Shown one piece after another: positions 1-55,136 of a DNA stretch of 64,000 nucleotides. A program made the position numbers and the translations under genes. Source of the stretch: a virus (Duplodnaviria > Heunggongvirae > Uroviricota > Caudoviricetes); IMG/VR virus record IMGVR_UViG_3300029828_000006, positions 27,904 through 91,903 of that record, one strand, 5' to 3'. Every line of letters starts with the position of its first letter. Position 1 is the stretch's first letter. The notes under the pieces are model-generated. The model was not told where the DNA came from, made no database searches, and worked only from the letters and a program-made list of their open reading frames with translations.

Positions 1-139
1 TGGAGTCCATTAATACAAAACCATCCGGTAGTAGAGTAATTATCAGGCCAGGCCCATACACCAACACTCCATACTTTACGGCGGCACACTTCAGCCTGTC
101 CTTCCCTGATTTTTTTTACCGCCTGCATGATGTCCATCA
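1..139 (-). CDS. partial ORF (start in window, 3' end beyond left edge); C-terminal-module protein of the antirepressor locus
   Basis: ATG at 137-135 overlaps the stop of the Rha ORF (TGATG coupling); product MDIMQAVKKIREGQAEVCRRKVW... resembles the 53166..53462 product (RERIKTGYAIVCRRVSW...). Confidence 0.35.
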
Positions 140-844
140 CTCACCTCCCCAACCGATCACCTGGAATTGCCCCATTTTGGGGTGATACCAGCGTTTTCCT
201 CGGTGTTCAGCCTCCGACATCATCCGGTTAAAAGCATTCATGAAGGGAGATAAGGCCACGATTGAACGACGCGACAATACCCCCTCTGGAGTTAAAAACT
301 CATGCGTATCTGTGGGGATCCGGTAAGCGTTGACCAGGTTGCGGCATTTGGCTTCGGTCAGGCCGCATTTTGCCGCCAGCTGGCGGTAGCCAATGTAACC
401 TTCCGGCATGTTGCCCTTCTTGATTTGCTCGACGGTTTCTACCACTTGGCTAACCTTTGACTCAACAACATGAAGCCGCTTTTGCTGCTGAACTGCATTT
501 GCAGCCATTGCGGCGATCATCTCTATTTCGGTCAACGGCTGGCGTGCTTGTTCTTCCAGTTCGCGCCAGCGGTCCACCAGCCGGGCGGTGAATTCGGGAG
601 AGAGCTGCGCAACGACAATAATGCTGTCTCGTTTGCCTTGCTCGCCTTCGAAGACGTAAGCCTCGACACTACGGCGTAGTCCTAAGTTATTGATTTTTTC
701 GAAAACCTGCAATGCAGGAAGTTGAATAACTCCAGATTTAGCCAGGCGCTCTATTGATATTTTTACGTTATCTGGACGACTTCCCACCAGCTCCGCGATC
801 TCAATGCTGGTCATTGATGGCTTTTCAAGAATGCAGATATCCAT
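137..844 (-). CDS. Rha-family phage regulatory protein / antirepressor (Ant-like)
   Basis: N-terminal MTSIEIAELVGSR...ISIERL Rha-type motif; overlaps upstream Icd-like ORF as in P1 immI; ~90% DNA-identical paralog at 53470..54108. Confidence 0.7.
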   Translation of the reverse strand: MDICILEKPSMTSIEIAELVGSRPDNVKISIERLAKSGVIQLPALQVFEKINNLGLRRSVEAYVFEGEQGKRDSIIVVAQLSPEFTARLVDRWRELEEQARQPLTEIEMIAAMAANAVQQQKRLHVVESKVSQVVETVEQIKKGNMPEGYIGYRQLAAKCGLTEAKCRNLVNAYRIPTDTHEFLTPEGVLSRRSIVALSPFMNAFNRMMSEAEHRGKRWYHPKMGQFQVIGWGGE

Positions 845-1068
845 CAGTGTGCCTCCGCAATTCCGGGATTGGTAATATTGCGATACCAGGGATTAGTGTT
901 TGGTTGTGGGGAAGTAGAGAAACGACCAGTAAGAACACCATGCTGATCAGGGATCAGAGAACGGGCTTCTTTTTCGGTTGCGGCAATTGCGAAGTGATCG
1001 CAGTGTTTTTGCAGGGAGTGGAAACGCCAGATGAATTCTGGACGTGAGCAAGGATTGGCATTAACCAT
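844..1068 (-). CDS. Icd-like host cell-division inhibitor (small immI protein)
   Basis: 74 aa, FIWRF motif, immediately upstream of and overlapping ant-like gene; SD GAGG 8-11 nt upstream of ATG. Confidence 0.5.
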   Translation of the reverse strand: MVNANPCSRPEFIWRFHSLQKHCDHFAIAATEKEARSLIPDQHGVLTGRFSTSPQPNTNPWYRNITNPGIAEAH

Positions 1069-1129
1069 AGTTACGGCCTCACTAACAGGTTTAACAACCT
1101 GCTACCCGCTGTCAAACAGGTGGCAGGAC

Positions 1130-1240
1130 GTGACAGGGTTGACAGACTGGCGTTAGTGAAACCAGCAGGCCGAAGCCTCCCCATCACGCCCCACCATAAT
1201 TCGGGCGTAACGCGGTTTACGGACACAAAAATACCGCAAT
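1130..1240 (-). ncRNA. candidate c4-type antisense RNA element in icd/ant leader
   Basis: Leader segment (+ coords 1152-1160 gttagtgaa) is the reverse complement of the icd RBS region (1077-1086 cctcactaac); exact RNA ends not determinable. Confidence 0.25.
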
Positions 1241-1417
1241 ATCGGAAATCTGCGGTTGTCCGCACTAACATTCAGGCTGTCAAACCTGGTCGCAGAATTT
1301 GCTACGACGGCATGAATATAAGCCTGAAAACATGGAAGATCAACTAAAAATTTCAGCAATGGATGACTTCAGTCGATGATGCAGATCATACATTCCGATT
1401 TAGAAACAGCAAATTAA

Positions 1418-53106: not shown

Positions 53107-53165
53107 CGTGCGGAGAATCCGGTTATTTAGTAGTTAAAGCCCCGGACAGGCCGGGGCAACAGTAA

Positions 53166-53462
53166 TTAACTAACAATCCAGTCCGTAGCAACAACATCCT
53201 CTGGAGCTAAATCAATCGCATGGATTTTCCCATCCCGGATAGTGCGCCAGTGCTTTCGTGATCCACCTTCGGGCCACACCCATACACCTTCAGGCCAGGA
53301 TACTCGACGGCATACGATTGCATAGCCTGTTTTAATCCTCTCTCTGGCGGTATGCAACGACAGGTTTGCCTTTGGACTTTCAGGCACAGGATGGTGGATT
53401 GCCTGAAACATCCCCATCTTTGGATGATACCAGCGTTTATTGCGTGGTTCTGCCTCCGACAT
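53166..53462 (-). CDS. antirepressor-locus C-terminal-module protein (separate gene)
   Basis: ATG at 53462 preceded by AGGUG SD 7 nt after Rha stop; MSEAEPRNKRWYHPKMG... homologous to the tail of 137..844 and to the partial ORF at 1..139. Confidence 0.45.
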   Translation of the reverse strand: MSEAEPRNKRWYHPKMGMFQAIHHPVPESPKANLSLHTARERIKTGYAIVCRRVSWPEGVWVWPEGGSRKHWRTIRDGKIHAIDLAPEDVVATDWIVS

Positions 53463-53469
53463 CACCTGC

Positions 53470-54108
53470 TTAAAGGCTTTCCGGAAGGGGGGCCATGGCC
53501 ACAATGGAGCGTCGCGCAAGCAAACCATCGGGAGTTAAAAACTCATGCGTATCGGTGGGAATCCGGAAAGCGTTAACCAGGTTGCGGCATTTGGCTTCAG
53601 TCAGGCCACATTTCGCCGCCAGCTGGCGGTAGCCAATGTAGCCTTCCGGAATATTGCCTTTCTTTATTTGCTCGAGTGTTTCAGCGACCATCGATACTTG
53701 TGCTGATACCTCGGCTACCTGGGCATTTACGGCGTTGATCCGGCGTTCATGCTCAAGATGCATTTGCGCCATTTCAGCCAGAATTTCGGCTTTTGATTTT
53801 AACTGTACCCGGGCATTCTCCAGTTCGCGCCAGCGGTCCACCAGCCGGGCGGTGAATTCGGGAGAGAGCTGCGCGACGACGACAATACTATCGCGCTTGC
53901 CTTGCTCGCCTTCGAAGAAATAGGCTTTTGTGTATTTATTAGGGCTAAGTGATTGATTATTCTCAACTGTAGCCAATGGCGTATGTTGGATAACTCCTTT
54001 AGCAACAAGTCTTTCGATGCTGCGTTTAACATCAGAGTGACGACTTCCCACCAGTTCCGCGATCTCAATGCTGGTCATTGTCGCTTTTTGAGAGATGGAC
54101 AGATTCAT
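53470..54108 (-). CDS. Rha-family phage regulatory protein / antirepressor (second copy)
   Basis: 212 aa, MTSIEIAELVGSR motif; ~90% DNA identity with copy at 137..844 over the conserved core. Confidence 0.7.
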   Translation of the reverse strand: MNLSISQKATMTSIEIAELVGSRHSDVKRSIERLVAKGVIQHTPLATVENNQSLSPNKYTKAYFFEGEQGKRDSIVVVAQLSPEFTARLVDRWRELENARVQLKSKAEILAEMAQMHLEHERRINAVNAQVAEVSAQVSMVAETLEQIKKGNIPEGYIGYRQLAAKCGLTEAKCRNLVNAFRIPTDTHEFLTPDGLLARRSIVAMAPLPESL

Positions 54109-54323
54109 CAGTGCACCTCCACGCAGTTCATTGGCAGATTCCAGTAATTGAGGATCTCCATCGCATCAAGAGTGAAGCGAGCAGCAAAAATGCAGGGTTC
54201 TTCGGGAAGGTATGAGCGCGCCTCTGCTTCGGTAGCAGCCATTACGCAGATATAAAGGTGTTTTTGGCAGGAATAGAAACGCCAGATAAATTCAGAATGA
54301 GTTGGGGTAGGGATAGTAGCCAT
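54108..54323 (-). CDS. Icd-like small protein (second copy)
   Basis: 71 aa, FIWRF motif, strong SD AAGGAGG. Confidence 0.5.
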   Translation of the reverse strand: MATIPTPTHSEFIWRFYSCQKHLYICVMAATEAEARSYLPEEPCIFAARFTLDAMEILNYWNLPMNCVEVH

Positions 54324-54389
54324 ATTGGCAGCCTCCTTTGACTAAGTTAAGGAGCTACCGCGTGAGGTTCCAATCTCAATGGCGGTAGC

Positions 54390-54480
54390 ACTGACTGGGT
54401 TGGAACTACCGGCGTCAAAGGGAACCGGCCTGCCTTTCGGCAGCCCAGCCAGCACTACCATTGATCTCTGAGCTAAACGC
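54390..54480 (-). ncRNA. candidate c4-type antisense RNA element in second icd/ant leader
   Basis: + strand 54414-54422 gtcaaaggg is reverse complement of RBS-region cctttgac at 54335-54342. Confidence 0.25.
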
Positions 54481-55121
54481 TAAGTATGGCTGTGCGATGG
54501 CATGACACAAAAAAAGACGCGTTCGGCGTCTGTGTCGCCTTTGACATTATCCGGGGTTCCAATCCCGGCACCCGTTTTTCTAAGGTGCCGTAGAAATATA
54601 CCCCACGATAATGCCAGGGCGCAACAGTCAGTATTTTATGCTTTGGCGGATTTCTTCCGGGCTTGCTTGCAGGCGTAGGCCATTGCTTTAGCTTTCACTT
54701 CATCCAGCTTCCCGGTGATCACTTCTTTTCCGAGAGTGACAAACCAGTCATAGCAACCGCCAGTAATGTTCTTGATTTGAAAGTTGAGGTAGCGAACAGT
54801 CATTTTGACACCCCCAGCGCGAGTAAAGAATGCAGATTATCGCGTGAGTGGTGGACGACGAGTGATGGGAAAAGACTGTAGTTGTTCATAGTGTAGTGAC
54901 TCCTTGCTTTCGGAGCCGCCATCGACTGTTCCACGGTCTGGTGGCGGCGCAATAAAGGCTGGAACACCGTGAGTCAACGGGGGCTTTTCAGCCACCTATA
55001 TTGCACCGCCATAGGTATGGCGGCGGCAATAATACGAAAAACTAAACAGTTTGTCTCAAAAAGTTGACCGGTGTGCCAATCGGTAGTGAATGTACATCGG
55101 TGAAATTCACAATTCAACTTA

Positions 55122-55136
55122 AAATGTTAGAAAACT
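55122..55136. promoter_or_regulatory. operator-like motif (reverse orientation, AGTTTTCTAACAT) far upstream of second immI-like module
   Basis: Motif family; abuts stop of ref-like gene. Confidence 0.35.

What the first reader, a model, noticed from the sequence alone, without database searches (positions are those of the whole stretch)
53166..55136. Second, diverged immI-like module with differently placed domain boundary
A second Icd-like / Rha / C-terminal-module set is ~90% DNA-identical to the left-edge copy in the Rha core, so it is a diverged paralog rather than a fresh duplication. The boundary between the Rha ORF and the downstream ORF falls at different points in the two copies; the SEAE..RWYHPKMG segment is on ORF1 in copy 1 and on ORF2 in copy 2. 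Homopolymer tracts sit near the boundaries (C6/G6 at 53487-53492; T8 at ~107-114). The leader again has RBS complementarity (54414-54422 vs 54335-54342). Two immunity-I modules on one element suggest recombination between related phages or a decoy antirepressor.
Basis: seen in the sequence. Interest (0 to 1): 0.5.

Follow-up and report, generated by a model that had tools for sequence, protein, structure and literature searches.

The report
Frameshifted second antirepressor operon of D6-like phage-plasmid
This is the second of two antisense-RNA-controlled antirepressor operons that all D6-like (P1-related) phage-plasmids carry, and its odd gene boundary comes from one extra C in a run of five, a real allele found in many isolates that splits a normally single 313-residue protein.

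Summary
Window 53166-54601 (minus strand) holds a complete immI-type module: isrK-like a1/b1 element, C4 antisense RNA (Rfam 77 bits), icd-like ORF, and a Rha-type antirepressor. It is a diverged paralog of the left-edge copy: Ant 64% aa, Icd 45%, DNA 73% overall, and about 90% only in two blocks.

The window is 100% identical, where checked, to plasmid CP088384.1, a D6-like phage-plasmid. Phage D6 and over 80 complete plasmids carry both modules, so this is neither a misassembly nor new.

The shifted boundary is a +1 frameshift. D6, 92 of 93 PLSDB plasmids and over 100 protein clusters have C5 and a single 301-314 aa Ant; the window has C6 (53487-53492). The allele is genuine. The exact 212-aa product occurs on 31 contigs, including three independent draft assemblies. 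An unrelated O111:H8 plasmid acquired the same insertion independently.

The two c4 RNAs are orthogonal. Copy 1 is identical to P1 c4; copy 2 is of the P4/phiP27 type.

The C-terminal 65-aa module is a separate gene in copy 1 and fused in normal copy 2. It is probably a minimal Tad2-like (DUF2829) domain, on weak but concordant evidence.

Verdict: a known kind of system, mostly explained, with modest interest.

The parts
54510..54601 (-). Upstream target/decoy element of copy 2 (isrK-like, equivalent to a1/b1). It has two hairpins, then an intrinsic terminator (stem 54515-54531, U7 54509-54515). a1 (UUGGAAC) is at 54556-54562 and b1 (GUCAAAGG) at 54538-54545.
   Evidence: Rfam isrK 61.3 bits (gathering score 50), E=1.1e-10. 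It is overlapped by a sub-threshold c4-a1b1 match, 22.4 bits, E=0.0021. Exact 7-8-mers complementary to c4-2 are present. The terminator was found.
54378..54465 (-). c4-2 antisense RNA gene. The b' loop CCUUUGAC is at 54414-54421 and a' GUUCCAA at 54400-54406. The PGAP 'ash family protein' ORF (54342-54461) lies inside this region.
   Evidence: Rfam C4 77.1 bits, full-length model match 1-87.
54332..54373 (-). icd-2 leader with the c4 target sites. a2 (UUGGAAC) is at 54367-54373. b2 (GUCAAAGG) is at 54335-54342, overlapping the Shine-Dalgarno AAGGAGG.
   Evidence: Sequence. The exact complementary k-mers occur only with c4-2, not with c4-1.
54108..54323 (-). icd-like ORF, 71 aa. Its stop overlaps the ant start (TGATG).
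   Evidence: phrog_1426 E=3.7e-41. PGAP and D6 annotate it as 'Icd-like'. It is 45% identical to the copy-1 Icd.
53470..54108 (-). 5' part of ant-2: a 212-aa frameshift-truncated Rha-type antirepressor. It comprises a winged helix, a long helix and most of a second winged-helix-like domain.
   Evidence: Pfam Phage_pRha 33.9 bits (cut-off 29.9). phrog_63 'anti-repressor Ant'. The exact product is found on 31 contigs.
53487..53492 (-). C6 run (G6 on the + strand). Relatives have C5. The extra C shifts the frame at codon 207.
   Evidence: Alignment with D6 and CP047663. PLSDB has 1 of 93 records with C6. RefSeq E. coli has 1 of 87, an independent event. C6 is reproduced in 3 draft assemblies.
53166..53486 (-). 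3' part of ant-2, now out of frame. It encodes the conserved FRKAFKQVMSEAE..RWYHPKMG segment, a linker and the C-terminal module. A possible restart AUG (MSEAE..., 98 aa) lies 7 nt after the TAA stop.
   Evidence: Translations. A 98-aa ORF is called next to the 212-aa ORF in other assemblies.
53169..53363 (-). C-terminal 65-aa module, probably a minimal Tad2-like / DUF2829 domain.
53140..53156 (-). GC-rich hairpin (CCCCGG-cctgt-CCGGGG) just after the ant-2 stop. It is a possible terminator, with a weak U tail.
   Evidence: Read from the sequence. It was not called by the consensus terminator scan.
1269..1321 (-). Copy 1 a1/b1 element.
   Evidence: Rfam c4-a1b1 54.4 bits. A sub-threshold isrK match (43.5 bits) overlaps it.
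1116..1201 (-). Copy 1 c4 RNA, identical in sequence to P1 c4. Its targets are a2 at 1109-1115 and b2 at 1079-1086.
   Evidence: Rfam C4 68.8 bits. Alignment with annotated P1 immI. Complementarity analysis.
844..1068 (-). Copy 1 icd-like ORF, 74 aa.
   Evidence: phrog_1426 E=6.5e-39. The 5' part is 93% identical to P1 icd DNA.
137..844 (-). Copy 1 Rha-type Ant, 235 aa, ending after the RWYHPKMG hairpin.
   Evidence: phrog_63 E=2.7e-47. The same ORF is annotated as D6 orf18.
1..137 (-). Copy 1 stand-alone 65-aa Tad2-like ORF (D6 orf17 homolog). It is coupled by a TGATG overlap and is cut by the window edge. The A8 run is at 110-117.
   Evidence: The full ORF is in L004:4041-4238. phrog_7385 E=1.4e-48. 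Its cluster has 165 members.

Best explanation
The region is the second of two immI-type operons on a D6-like, P1-related phage-plasmid.

Inferred mechanism, by homology with P1 immI, P4 CI RNA and Gifsy-1 IsrK: a leader transcript carries an a1/b1 target element with a leaky terminator, followed by the c4-2 RNA. Processed c4-2 pairs through its a' and b' elements with a2 and b2. The b2 site covers the ribosome-binding site of icd-2. This blocks translation of icd-2 and of the translationally coupled antirepressor gene ant-2.

Shown here: c4-2 and c4-1 have non-overlapping target specificities, so the two operons are regulated independently. Copy 1 has the P1 specificity.

Shown by relatives: ant-2 normally encodes one 313-aa protein. 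It consists of a Rha winged helix, a coiled-coil helix, a second winged-helix-like domain ending in the conserved SEAE..RWYHPKMG segment, a linker, and a 65-aa module. That module is probably a minimal Tad2-like/DUF2829 domain. In copy 1 the same module is a separate, translationally coupled 65-aa gene.

Shown here: in this window one extra C in a C5 run shifts the frame at codon 207, inside the last helix of the second domain. The result is a 212-aa product and an out-of-frame 3' ORF. This is a real allele carried by a circulating plasmid lineage.

Inferred: the most likely consequence is loss or weakening of Ant-2, while c4-2 and icd-2 stay intact. The lineage would then keep the defensive half of the module (the antisense RNA that silences incoming relatives) and lose the inducing half.
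For: Module anatomy:
- Rfam hits.
- Exact complementarity restricted to cognate pairs.
- TGATG overlaps.
- Family assignments.

Family trait:
- D6 annotation of both modules.
- 92 PLSDB plasmids cover at least 80% of the region, most with 2 or more places.
- Literature note.

Frameshift:
- Alignment showing C6 vs C5.
- 1 of 93 PLSDB records and 1 of 87 RefSeq genomes carry C6.
- More than 100 clusters of 301-314 aa fused proteins.

Real allele:
- The exact 212-aa product is on 31 contigs from NCBI, JGI, ENA and Logan.
- C6 is present in GCA_032658785.1, GCA_005393345.1 and GCA_054600295.1.
- No other conserved gene in the 64-kb window is frameshifted relative to D6.

The break falls inside a structural element:
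- The AF2 model has helix 205-218 and hairpin 225-236.
- This segment is nearly invariant across both paralogs.
- It is retained on the Ant ORF in copy 1.
Against: - No expression or read data are available. The regulatory mechanism is inferred from P1, P4 and IsrK, not tested.
- The target repressor is unknown. No P1-type C1 operator occurs in the window, and the D6-type Ant is unrelated to P1 Ant1 and KilA.
- The frameshifted allele is more frequent than its exact in-frame counterpart (31 vs 17 contigs). It also arose twice, which could mean it is not simply a defect.
- An AUG 7 nt after the new stop codon could allow reinitiation. That would give a 98-aa protein carrying the Tad2-like module, mimicking the natural split in copy 1.
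- The full-length AF2 model is of low overall confidence (pLDDT 64.7, tail below 50).
Confidence: 0.8

Rival explanations
1. The extra C is a sequencing or assembly error in a homopolymer, and the real plasmid encodes the intact 313-aa Ant-2.
For: Only 1 of 93 PLSDB records has C6, and that record is the window's own source. Homopolymer indels are the classic long-read error. Database entries of the small copy-1 ORF show multi-indel variants that look like errors (P0126, P0003). The source assembly is absent from the RefSeq complete-genome set.
Against: The exact truncated product is on 31 contigs from four sources. Three independent NCBI draft assemblies carry C6, and two of them are identical to the window over 2408 nt. 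No other conserved ORF in the window is frameshifted relative to D6.
Confidence: 0.07
2. The C6 allele is a functional split, not a loss. Termination at TAA is followed by reinitiation at the AUG 7 nt downstream. This yields a 212-aa Rha core plus a 98-aa protein carrying the conserved segment and the Tad2-like module, which together or separately do the job, as the naturally split copy 1 (235 + 65 aa) does.
For: Copy 1 shows that the module works as a separate coupled gene. The module also exists alone in other phage-plasmids and next to an integrase. The allele is common in its lineage (31 vs 17 contigs). The same insertion arose independently on another backbone. Gene callers annotate the 98-aa ORF.
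Against: The break lies about 30 residues upstream of the natural boundary, inside a predicted helix of a segment nearly invariant in both paralogs. The AGGUG immediately abutting the AUG is badly spaced for a Shine-Dalgarno. The other allele (NZ_CP077453.1) is annotated as a pseudogene. There is no evidence of selection acting after the split.
Confidence: 0.2
3. The C run is a contingency (phase-variable) switch that reversibly turns Ant-2 on and off within populations.
For: Two independent C5-to-C6 events occurred at the same run.
Against: A run of 5-6 C is short for phase variation. Only about 2 of roughly 150 complete plasmids carry C6, and no C4 or C7 was seen. Within the C6 lineage the flanks are identical, which indicates clonal inheritance rather than switching.
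Confidence: 0.04
4. One reading: the second module is a decoy or redundant antirepressor picked up by recent recombination, without its own regulatory role.
For: The Ant genes are mosaic and hybrids between the two copies exist. Copy 2's leader resembles P4/phiP27/Stx-phage leaders rather than P1.
Against: Both modules are conserved in position across D6 and most D6-like plasmids of E. coli, Salmonella and Shigella. Each module has a complete and mutually exclusive c4/target set. The paralogs are old (Icd 45% aa identity).
Confidence: 0.1

Closest known systems
Phage D6 orf82-orf83 (anti-repressor Ant / Icd-like) and the D6-like plasmid prophages (Gilcrease & Casjens 2018; PMC6799933)
   Same: The locus is the same and syntenic: ref - orf86/85 - c4 - icd - ant - pmgF - orf80 - simB - mat. 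It is 95.2% identical over 2.3 kb. D6 also has the copy-1 set, orf17-19. [quoted passage not shown]
   Different: D6 has C5 and one 313-aa ORF, whereas the window has C6 and two ORFs. The D6 record does not annotate the c4 RNAs or the C-terminal domain.
Phage P1 immI operon (c4 - icd - ant1/ant2)
   Same: The architecture matches: a1/b1 - c4 - a2/b2 (RBS) - icd - coupled ant. The copy-1 c4 and its targets are identical to P1's. Copy 2 has the same layout and a full-length C4 model match.
   Different: The Ant is of the Rha type and has no detectable similarity to P1 Ant1 or KilA (BLASTP E=0.23 and 0.65). The P1 Op51 operator and promoter region are not conserved, and there is no P1-type C1 operator in the window. 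Copy 2's recognition loops differ from P1's. There are two modules per genome instead of one.
Gifsy-1 isrK - orf45 - anrP locus (Hershko-Shalev et al. 2016, PMC4825925) and satellite P4 CI RNA immunity
   Same: Copy 2's upstream element matches Rfam isrK above its gathering score. Its leader has DNA similarity to P4 cI/'ash', phiP27 and Stx phages. As in Gifsy-1, a terminator-bearing small RNA precedes a conserved RNA-like 'ORF' and a translationally coupled antirepressor.
   Different: The IsrK paper describes activation by IsrK acting in trans and does not mention c4 or P1. Here the isrK-like element carries exact a1/b1 complementarity to the downstream c4, which suggests it is the c4 target or decoy. 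P4 acts by transcription termination and has no icd-ant.
Tad2 / DUF2829 (PF11195) anti-Thoeris sponge proteins (Yirmiya et al.; SPO1 Tad2, ModTad2, AcrIIA7)
   Same: The C-terminal module aligns colinearly over the whole Pfam domain. It shares an N-terminal helix with G-x-x-[VA]-x-R-R-x-x-W, a W-x-P motif, and a C-terminal D-h-h-A-x-D-W-h-V motif. The predicted fold is helix plus 5 strands. The best structural matches are Tad2/DUF2829 proteins.

Membership tests
P1-type immI operon | c4 antisense RNA gene in the operon leader | tested here: met
   Rfam C4 77.1 bits (gathering score 45), full-length match, at 54378-54465.
P1-type immI operon | Target sites a2/b2 complementary to the c4 loops, with b2 covering the icd ribosome-binding site, plus upstream a1/b1 copies | tested here: met
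   The exact complements GUUCCAA/UUGGAAC and CCUUUGAC/GUCAAAGG are present in both the leader and the upstream element. There are no 7-mers matching the other copy's c4 recognition loops (one stem 7-mer of c4-2 matches leader 1).
P1-type immI operon | icd ORF translationally coupled to the antirepressor gene | tested here: met
   icd-like ORF (phrog_1426, E=3.7e-41). Its TGA overlaps the ant ATG (TGATG at 54108). Coupling itself is inferred.
P1-type immI operon | Antirepressor homologous to P1 Ant1/Ant2 | tested here: not met
   BLASTP of P1 Ant1 against the intact homolog gives E=0.23, and of KilA gives E=0.65. Pfam assigns Phage_pRha instead.
P1-type immI operon | C1-controlled promoter (operator Op51 / Oc4) | tested here: not met
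   There are 0 matches to ATTGCTCTAATAAATTT with up to 3 mismatches in 64 kb. The P1 operator region does not align. The D6 C1 operator is unknown, so control by D6 C1 cannot be excluded.
P1-type immI operon | Ant binds and inactivates the prophage repressor | not testable with these tools
   Needs genetics or biochemistry.
Rha family (PF09669) phage regulatory / antirepressor proteins | N-terminal Phage_pRha winged-helix domain above the Pfam gathering score | tested here: met
   33.9 bits for the window ORF and 36.9 for D6 orf82, against a cut-off of 29.9. phrog_63 'anti-repressor Ant' E=6.3e-61.
Tad2 / DUF2829 (PF11195) | Match to the Pfam model above the gathering score (25 bits) | tested here: not met
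   The window module scores 12.0 bits (E=0.32), P0001 16.5, P0125 14.0 and P0124 23.9. It is nevertheless the top-scoring family for three of the four and matched by all four, spanning profile positions 1-72 of 73.
Tad2 / DUF2829 (PF11195) | [quoted passage not shown] | tested here: inconclusive
Tad2 / DUF2829 (PF11195) | Homotetramer that binds and sequesters gcADPR or related immune signals | not testable with these tools
   The alpha2-containing loop used for Tad2 dimerisation is absent in the alignment. Binding assays are needed.
isrK (RF01394) sRNA | Match above the Rfam gathering score, with terminator | tested here: met
   61.3 bits against 50, at 54510-54588, ending in a U7 terminator. 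Hfq binding and trans-activation are not testable here.

The most novel reading that the evidence does not exclude
The 65-aa C-terminal module is a minimal Tad2-like immune-signal sponge. It occurs fused to the antirepressor in normal copy 2, as a translationally coupled gene in copy 1, and as a stand-alone accessory gene in other phage-plasmids. On this reading, D6-like phage-plasmids place an anti-Thoeris (or other anti-signalling) function under c4 antisense control, so it is co-expressed with the antirepressor exactly when the phage enters or re-enters lytic growth. The recurrent C-run frameshift would then uncouple the sponge from the antirepressor rather than simply destroy a gene.
Probability: 0.15. 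Interest if true: 0.6.

Novelty: already known. Interest (0 to 1): 0.3.

Why it matters
For annotation, the two ORFs at 53166-54108 should be treated as one frameshifted antirepressor gene, not as a new domain arrangement. The 'ash family protein' ORF should be treated as part of a c4 RNA gene.

For biology, three modest points follow.

(i) D6-like phage-plasmids are common in clinical E. coli and Salmonella. They carry two orthogonal antisense-controlled antirepressor switches, one with exactly the P1 specificity. This should shape which P1-family elements can coexist with or induce each other.

(ii) A successful plasmid lineage has a real frameshift in one antirepressor, and the same mutation arose twice. 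This fits selection for more stable lysogeny or for uncoupling the C-terminal module.

(iii) That module may be an unrecognised minimal DUF2829/Tad2-like domain. This would link immunity-region operons to anti-defence functions, but the link is only weakly supported.

Tried and rejected
- Misassembly of two replicons: rejected. Both copies lie in D6 and in many complete plasmids.
- Sequencing artefact: initially favoured because only 1 of 93 PLSDB records has C6. It was then rejected after the exact-sequence look-up and three independent assemblies.
- Assembly-wide frameshift noise: a tblastn scan of all D6 ORFs of at least 100 aa against the window found no other real frame change. The apparent one at about 37446 lies in spurious antisense ORFs over parM and its partner.
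- Comparison with NZ_CP047663.1 across the window was uninformative, because outside this locus it is only about 96% identical.
- Programmed frameshift or transcriptional slippage: no support. Relatives are simply in frame with C5.
- LexA (SOS) box near either module: CTGT-N8-ACAG with up to 1 mismatch is not enriched (29 observed vs 21 expected) and none is convincing.
- P1-type C1 operators: none found.
- The consensus promoter scan gave nothing above background.
- Sequence searches of the module against PDB chains, as single sequences and as a profile, found no Tad2 hit.
- A HMMER profile search of 1.84 billion representatives found only 6 relatives, so the family is narrow or too short to extend.
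- The word-indexed searches added no distant members.
- The AlphaFold database (afdb50) fold library was unavailable.
- The D6 genome paper (PMC5800970) is not held, so what it says about the two modules could not be read.
- Unrestricted RNA duplex folding was uninformative for long partners, so exact complementary k-mers were used instead.
Full report
**What is there**

On the minus strand between 54601 and 53140 lies a compact operon. Its parts, in order:
- An isrK-like element at 54510-54588 (Rfam 61.3 bits) ending in a stem-loop plus U7 terminator.
- A C4 antisense RNA gene at 54378-54465 (77.1 bits, full-length model match).
- A 71-aa icd-like ORF at 54108-54323.
- A 212-aa Rha-family ORF at 53470-54108, whose start overlaps the icd stop (TGATG).
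- An overlapping 120-aa ORF in another frame at 53166-53528.

The left edge of the window holds the same series:
- c4-a1b1 element at 1269-1321.
- C4 at 1116-1201.
- icd at 844-1068.
- A 235-aa Rha ORF at 137-844.
- A small ORF starting at 137 that runs off the window. In the source plasmid this ORF is 65 aa long.

**Origin**

The window is identical, over the 8.3 kb and 3.9 kb checked, to E. coli plasmid pF16EC0589-1 (CP088384.1). The locus is 95.2% identical to phage D6, a P1-related plasmid prophage.

D6 annotates both sets. One is orf19 (Icd-like), orf18 (Ant, 235 aa) and orf17 (65 aa, hypothetical), next to repL. The other is orf83 (Icd-like) and orf82 (Ant) between ref and pmgF. Ninety-two PLSDB plasmids of E. 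coli, Salmonella and Shigella cover at least 80% of the locus, most with two or more places per record. [quoted passage not shown]

So the two modules sit on one replicon, are conserved, and are not a new observation.

**How diverged are the copies**

- blastn gives 73% identity over 722 nt of the Rha ORF.
- Identity of about 90% occurs only in two blocks (53830-53920 and 53535-53685). These encode FEGEQGKRDS..RLVDRWRELE and EQIKKGN..GYIGYRQLAAKCGLTEAKCRNLVNA.RIPTDTHEFLTP.
- At protein level Ant is 64% identical, Icd 45%, and the C-terminal module 40%.
- Copy 1's c4, a1/b1 and a2/b2 are identical to those annotated in P1, but the P1 promoter and Op51 region is not conserved.
- Copy 2's leader is instead related to phiP27, Stx phages and the satellite P4 cI/'ash' region. 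It also occurs in the P1-like phages RCS47 and JL22.

**The boundary**

In D6, orf82 is a single 942-nt ORF of 313 aa. Aligning the window with D6 and with a 99.9%-identical plasmid shows one difference that matters. The window has CCCCCC at 53487-53492 where the others have CCCCC.

Removing one C fuses the 212-aa ORF in frame to ...FRKAFKQVMSEAEPRNKRWYHPKMG... and the rest of ORF2.

Survey results:
- In PLSDB, 1 of 93 records (the source itself) has C6.
- Among 5426 complete RefSeq E. coli genomes, 87 carry the junction and only one has C6.
- That one is NZ_CP077453.1, an O111:H8 plasmid with a different backbone (CTAG instead of CATGG before the run, and different N- and C-terminal variants). 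PGAP flags the gene there as frameshifted. This is an independent occurrence.
- More than 100 protein clusters of 301-314 aa, on contigs of about 90 kb, show the fused form to be the norm.

**Is the extra C real?**

I first suspected an error. An exact-sequence look-up changed that. The 212-aa product is recorded on 31 contigs (43 index blocks) from NCBI, JGI/IMG, ENA and Logan. The exact in-frame 313-aa version is on 17 contigs.

Three independent NCBI draft assemblies carry C6, and two of them are identical to the window over 2408 nt. A scan of all D6 ORFs of at least 100 aa against the window found no other genuine frame change.

The frameshift is therefore a heritable allele of a circulating plasmid lineage. 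Read-level confirmation is still desirable.

**Where the break falls**

An AF2 model of the intact homolog (pLDDT 64.7, tail poorly modelled) gives the following:
- A winged helix at residues 1-81.
- A long helix at 83-149.
- A second winged-helix-like unit at 157-218, whose last helix is 205-218.
- A hairpin at 225-236.

The frameshift at codon 207 cuts at the start of that last helix. The segment 205-237 is nearly invariant in both paralogs, and in copy 1 it stays on the Ant ORF, which ends right after the hairpin.

Hence the natural boundary is after RWYHPKMG.FQ.I, and the window's copy-2 boundary is a lesion about 30 residues upstream of it. A restart AUG (MSEAE...) lies 7 nt after the new TAA stop, and gene callers annotate that 98-aa ORF. 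A functional split therefore cannot be excluded, and I give it about 0.2.

**Regulation (inferred by homology)**

The c4-2 loop CCUUUGAC (54414-54421) and the element GUUCCAA (54400-54406) have exact complements in two places. One is the icd-2 leader: UUGGAAC at 54367-54373, and GUCAAAGG at 54335-54342, which overlaps the Shine-Dalgarno. The other is the isrK-like element: 54556-54562 and 54538-54545.

Likewise, c4-1 (CACUAAC, CUGUCAA) matches only its own leader and its own a1/b1. Neither c4's recognition elements have a complementary 7-mer in the other copy; the only cross-copy 7-mer lies in a c4-2 stem. The two operons are thus orthogonally controlled. Copy 1 has exactly the P1 immI specificity.

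By analogy with P1, c4 blocks icd translation and thereby expression of the coupled ant. With two specificities, a resident element can silence incoming relatives of either type. An incoming element is silenced only if both RNAs are present. This last reading is inference.

No P1-type C1 operator and no convincing LexA box were found. The D6-type Ant is unrelated to P1 Ant1 and KilA, so this is an immI-like operon with a non-orthologous antirepressor.

**The C-terminal module**

It matches phrog_7385 (stand-alone, 65 aa) and the last 60 positions of phrog_63 'anti-repressor Ant'.

It is a narrow family. A HMMER profile found only 6 proteins among 1.84 billion representatives. Two are stand-alone genes in other P1/D6-like phage-plasmids, for example in Raoultella. 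There they sit in an accessory slot between the capsid gene region and upfB/upfC, not next to an antirepressor. A further copy sits alone beside an integrase.

Evidence for a Tad2-like/DUF2829 relationship:
- Pfam's Tad2-like/DUF2829 model is hit by all four diverse members over its whole length and is the top family for three of them, but below threshold: 12-24 bits against a cut-off of 25.
- hhalign against the canonical DUF2829 protein of D6 (orf114, 81 bits to Pfam) gives P=0.017. Against a six-sequence DUF2829 alignment it gives P=0.0048, with colinear signature motifs.
- The AF2 model (pLDDT 76.8) is a helix plus five strands.
- In Foldseek the best-probability hits are SPO1 Tad2 in the PDB and a DUF2829 protein in BFVD.

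No single line is significant, but together I rate homology at about 0.7. The alpha2 loop that forms the Tad2 dimer interface is missing, so a sponge function is uncertain (about 0.15). I found no paper linking DUF2829 to antirepressors.

**Mosaicism**

The Ant family shows at least five N-terminal winged-helix variants and two middle-helix variants, in shuffled combinations with the fused C-terminus. In one contig (L011), a 306-aa hybrid gene joins the repL - c4-1 - icd-1 context to the pmgF - mat context. It is 96.9% identical to copy 1 down to window position 170, then becomes copy-2-like. The ~90% blocks are plausible crossover sites.

**Verdict**

The finding is real but largely explained. 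It is a known, conserved second immI-type operon of D6-like phage-plasmids. Its antirepressor gene is split here by a genuine single-base insertion in a homopolymer. Interest is modest and rests on three points: the recurrence and spread of the frameshift allele, the orthogonal dual c4 control, and the tentative Tad2-like module.

Noticed in passing
window 54510-54601 and 1227-1321 (minus strand): Rfam isrK (RF01394) and c4-a1b1 (RF03163) appear to describe the same element. At copy 2, isrK is above threshold and c4-a1b1 is sub-threshold (22.4 bits). At copy 1 the reverse holds (c4-a1b1 54.4 bits, isrK 43.5 bits). The isrK-like element carries exact a1/b1 complementarity to the downstream c4. 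This suggests the Gifsy-1 isrK-orf45-anrP locus is an immI-type module. In that locus 'orf45' has a conserved nucleotide sequence but not a conserved amino-acid sequence, and is processed to an ~80-nt RNA (PMC4825925), so it may be the c4 RNA. The paper does not mention c4 or P1.
   Followed up: partly
window 54342-54461 (minus strand): A 39-aa ORF that PGAP annotates as 'ash family protein' (Pfam Phage_ASH) lies almost entirely inside the C4 RNA gene. It is probably a spurious CDS inherited from the old P4 'ash/cI' ORF annotation.
   Followed up: partly
L013 (NZ_CP077453.1 10630-11341): An independent C5-to-C6 insertion at the same homopolymer, in an O111:H8 plasmid with a different ant backbone, annotated as a frameshifted pseudogene.
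   Followed up: yes
L011 (GCA_015254735.1 contig DACAJO010000057.1): A 306-aa hybrid ant gene joins the copy-1 upstream context (pro, repL, icd-1) to the copy-2 downstream context (pmgF-like, mat, gene 26). If this is a true structure, the ~38 kb between the two directly repeated modules is absent or rearranged in that element. Several 306-aa clusters in E. coli and Salmonella have this hybrid form.
   Followed up: partly
L007 (GCA_009767295.1) and L017-L020: The Tad2-like module occurs as a stand-alone gene. One copy is an 81-aa ORF 227 nt downstream of a phage integrase. Others are 68-96-aa genes in an accessory slot (between the capsid-region genes and upfB/upfC-PAAR) of other P1/D6-like phage-plasmids, including one from Raoultella.
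   Followed up: partly
L015:42126-42566 (D6 orf114; outside the window): D6-like elements also encode a canonical DUF2829/Tad2-like protein (146 aa, 81 bits to PF11195) next to a dUTPase, near cre. The element may therefore carry up to three DUF2829-type domains.
   Followed up: partly
window 110-117 (A8 on the coding strand of the small copy-1 ORF): Database variants of the 65-aa ORF (P0126, P0002, P0003) show indels at or after this A8 run and elsewhere. They look like low-quality sequence or decayed copies. The run sits in codons 8-10 and is not at the ORF boundary.
   Followed up: partly
window 54636-54803 (minus strand): A conserved 55-aa ORF (phrog_7786, D6 orf85) lies between ref and the isrK-like element, upstream of copy 2. 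Its function is unknown, and whether it belongs to the same transcript is unknown.
   Followed up: no
window-wide: There is no match to the P1 C1 operator consensus (up to 3 mismatches) anywhere in the 64 kb, although D6 encodes a C1-like repressor (orf1, outside the window). The D6-family operator must differ from P1's.
   Followed up: partly
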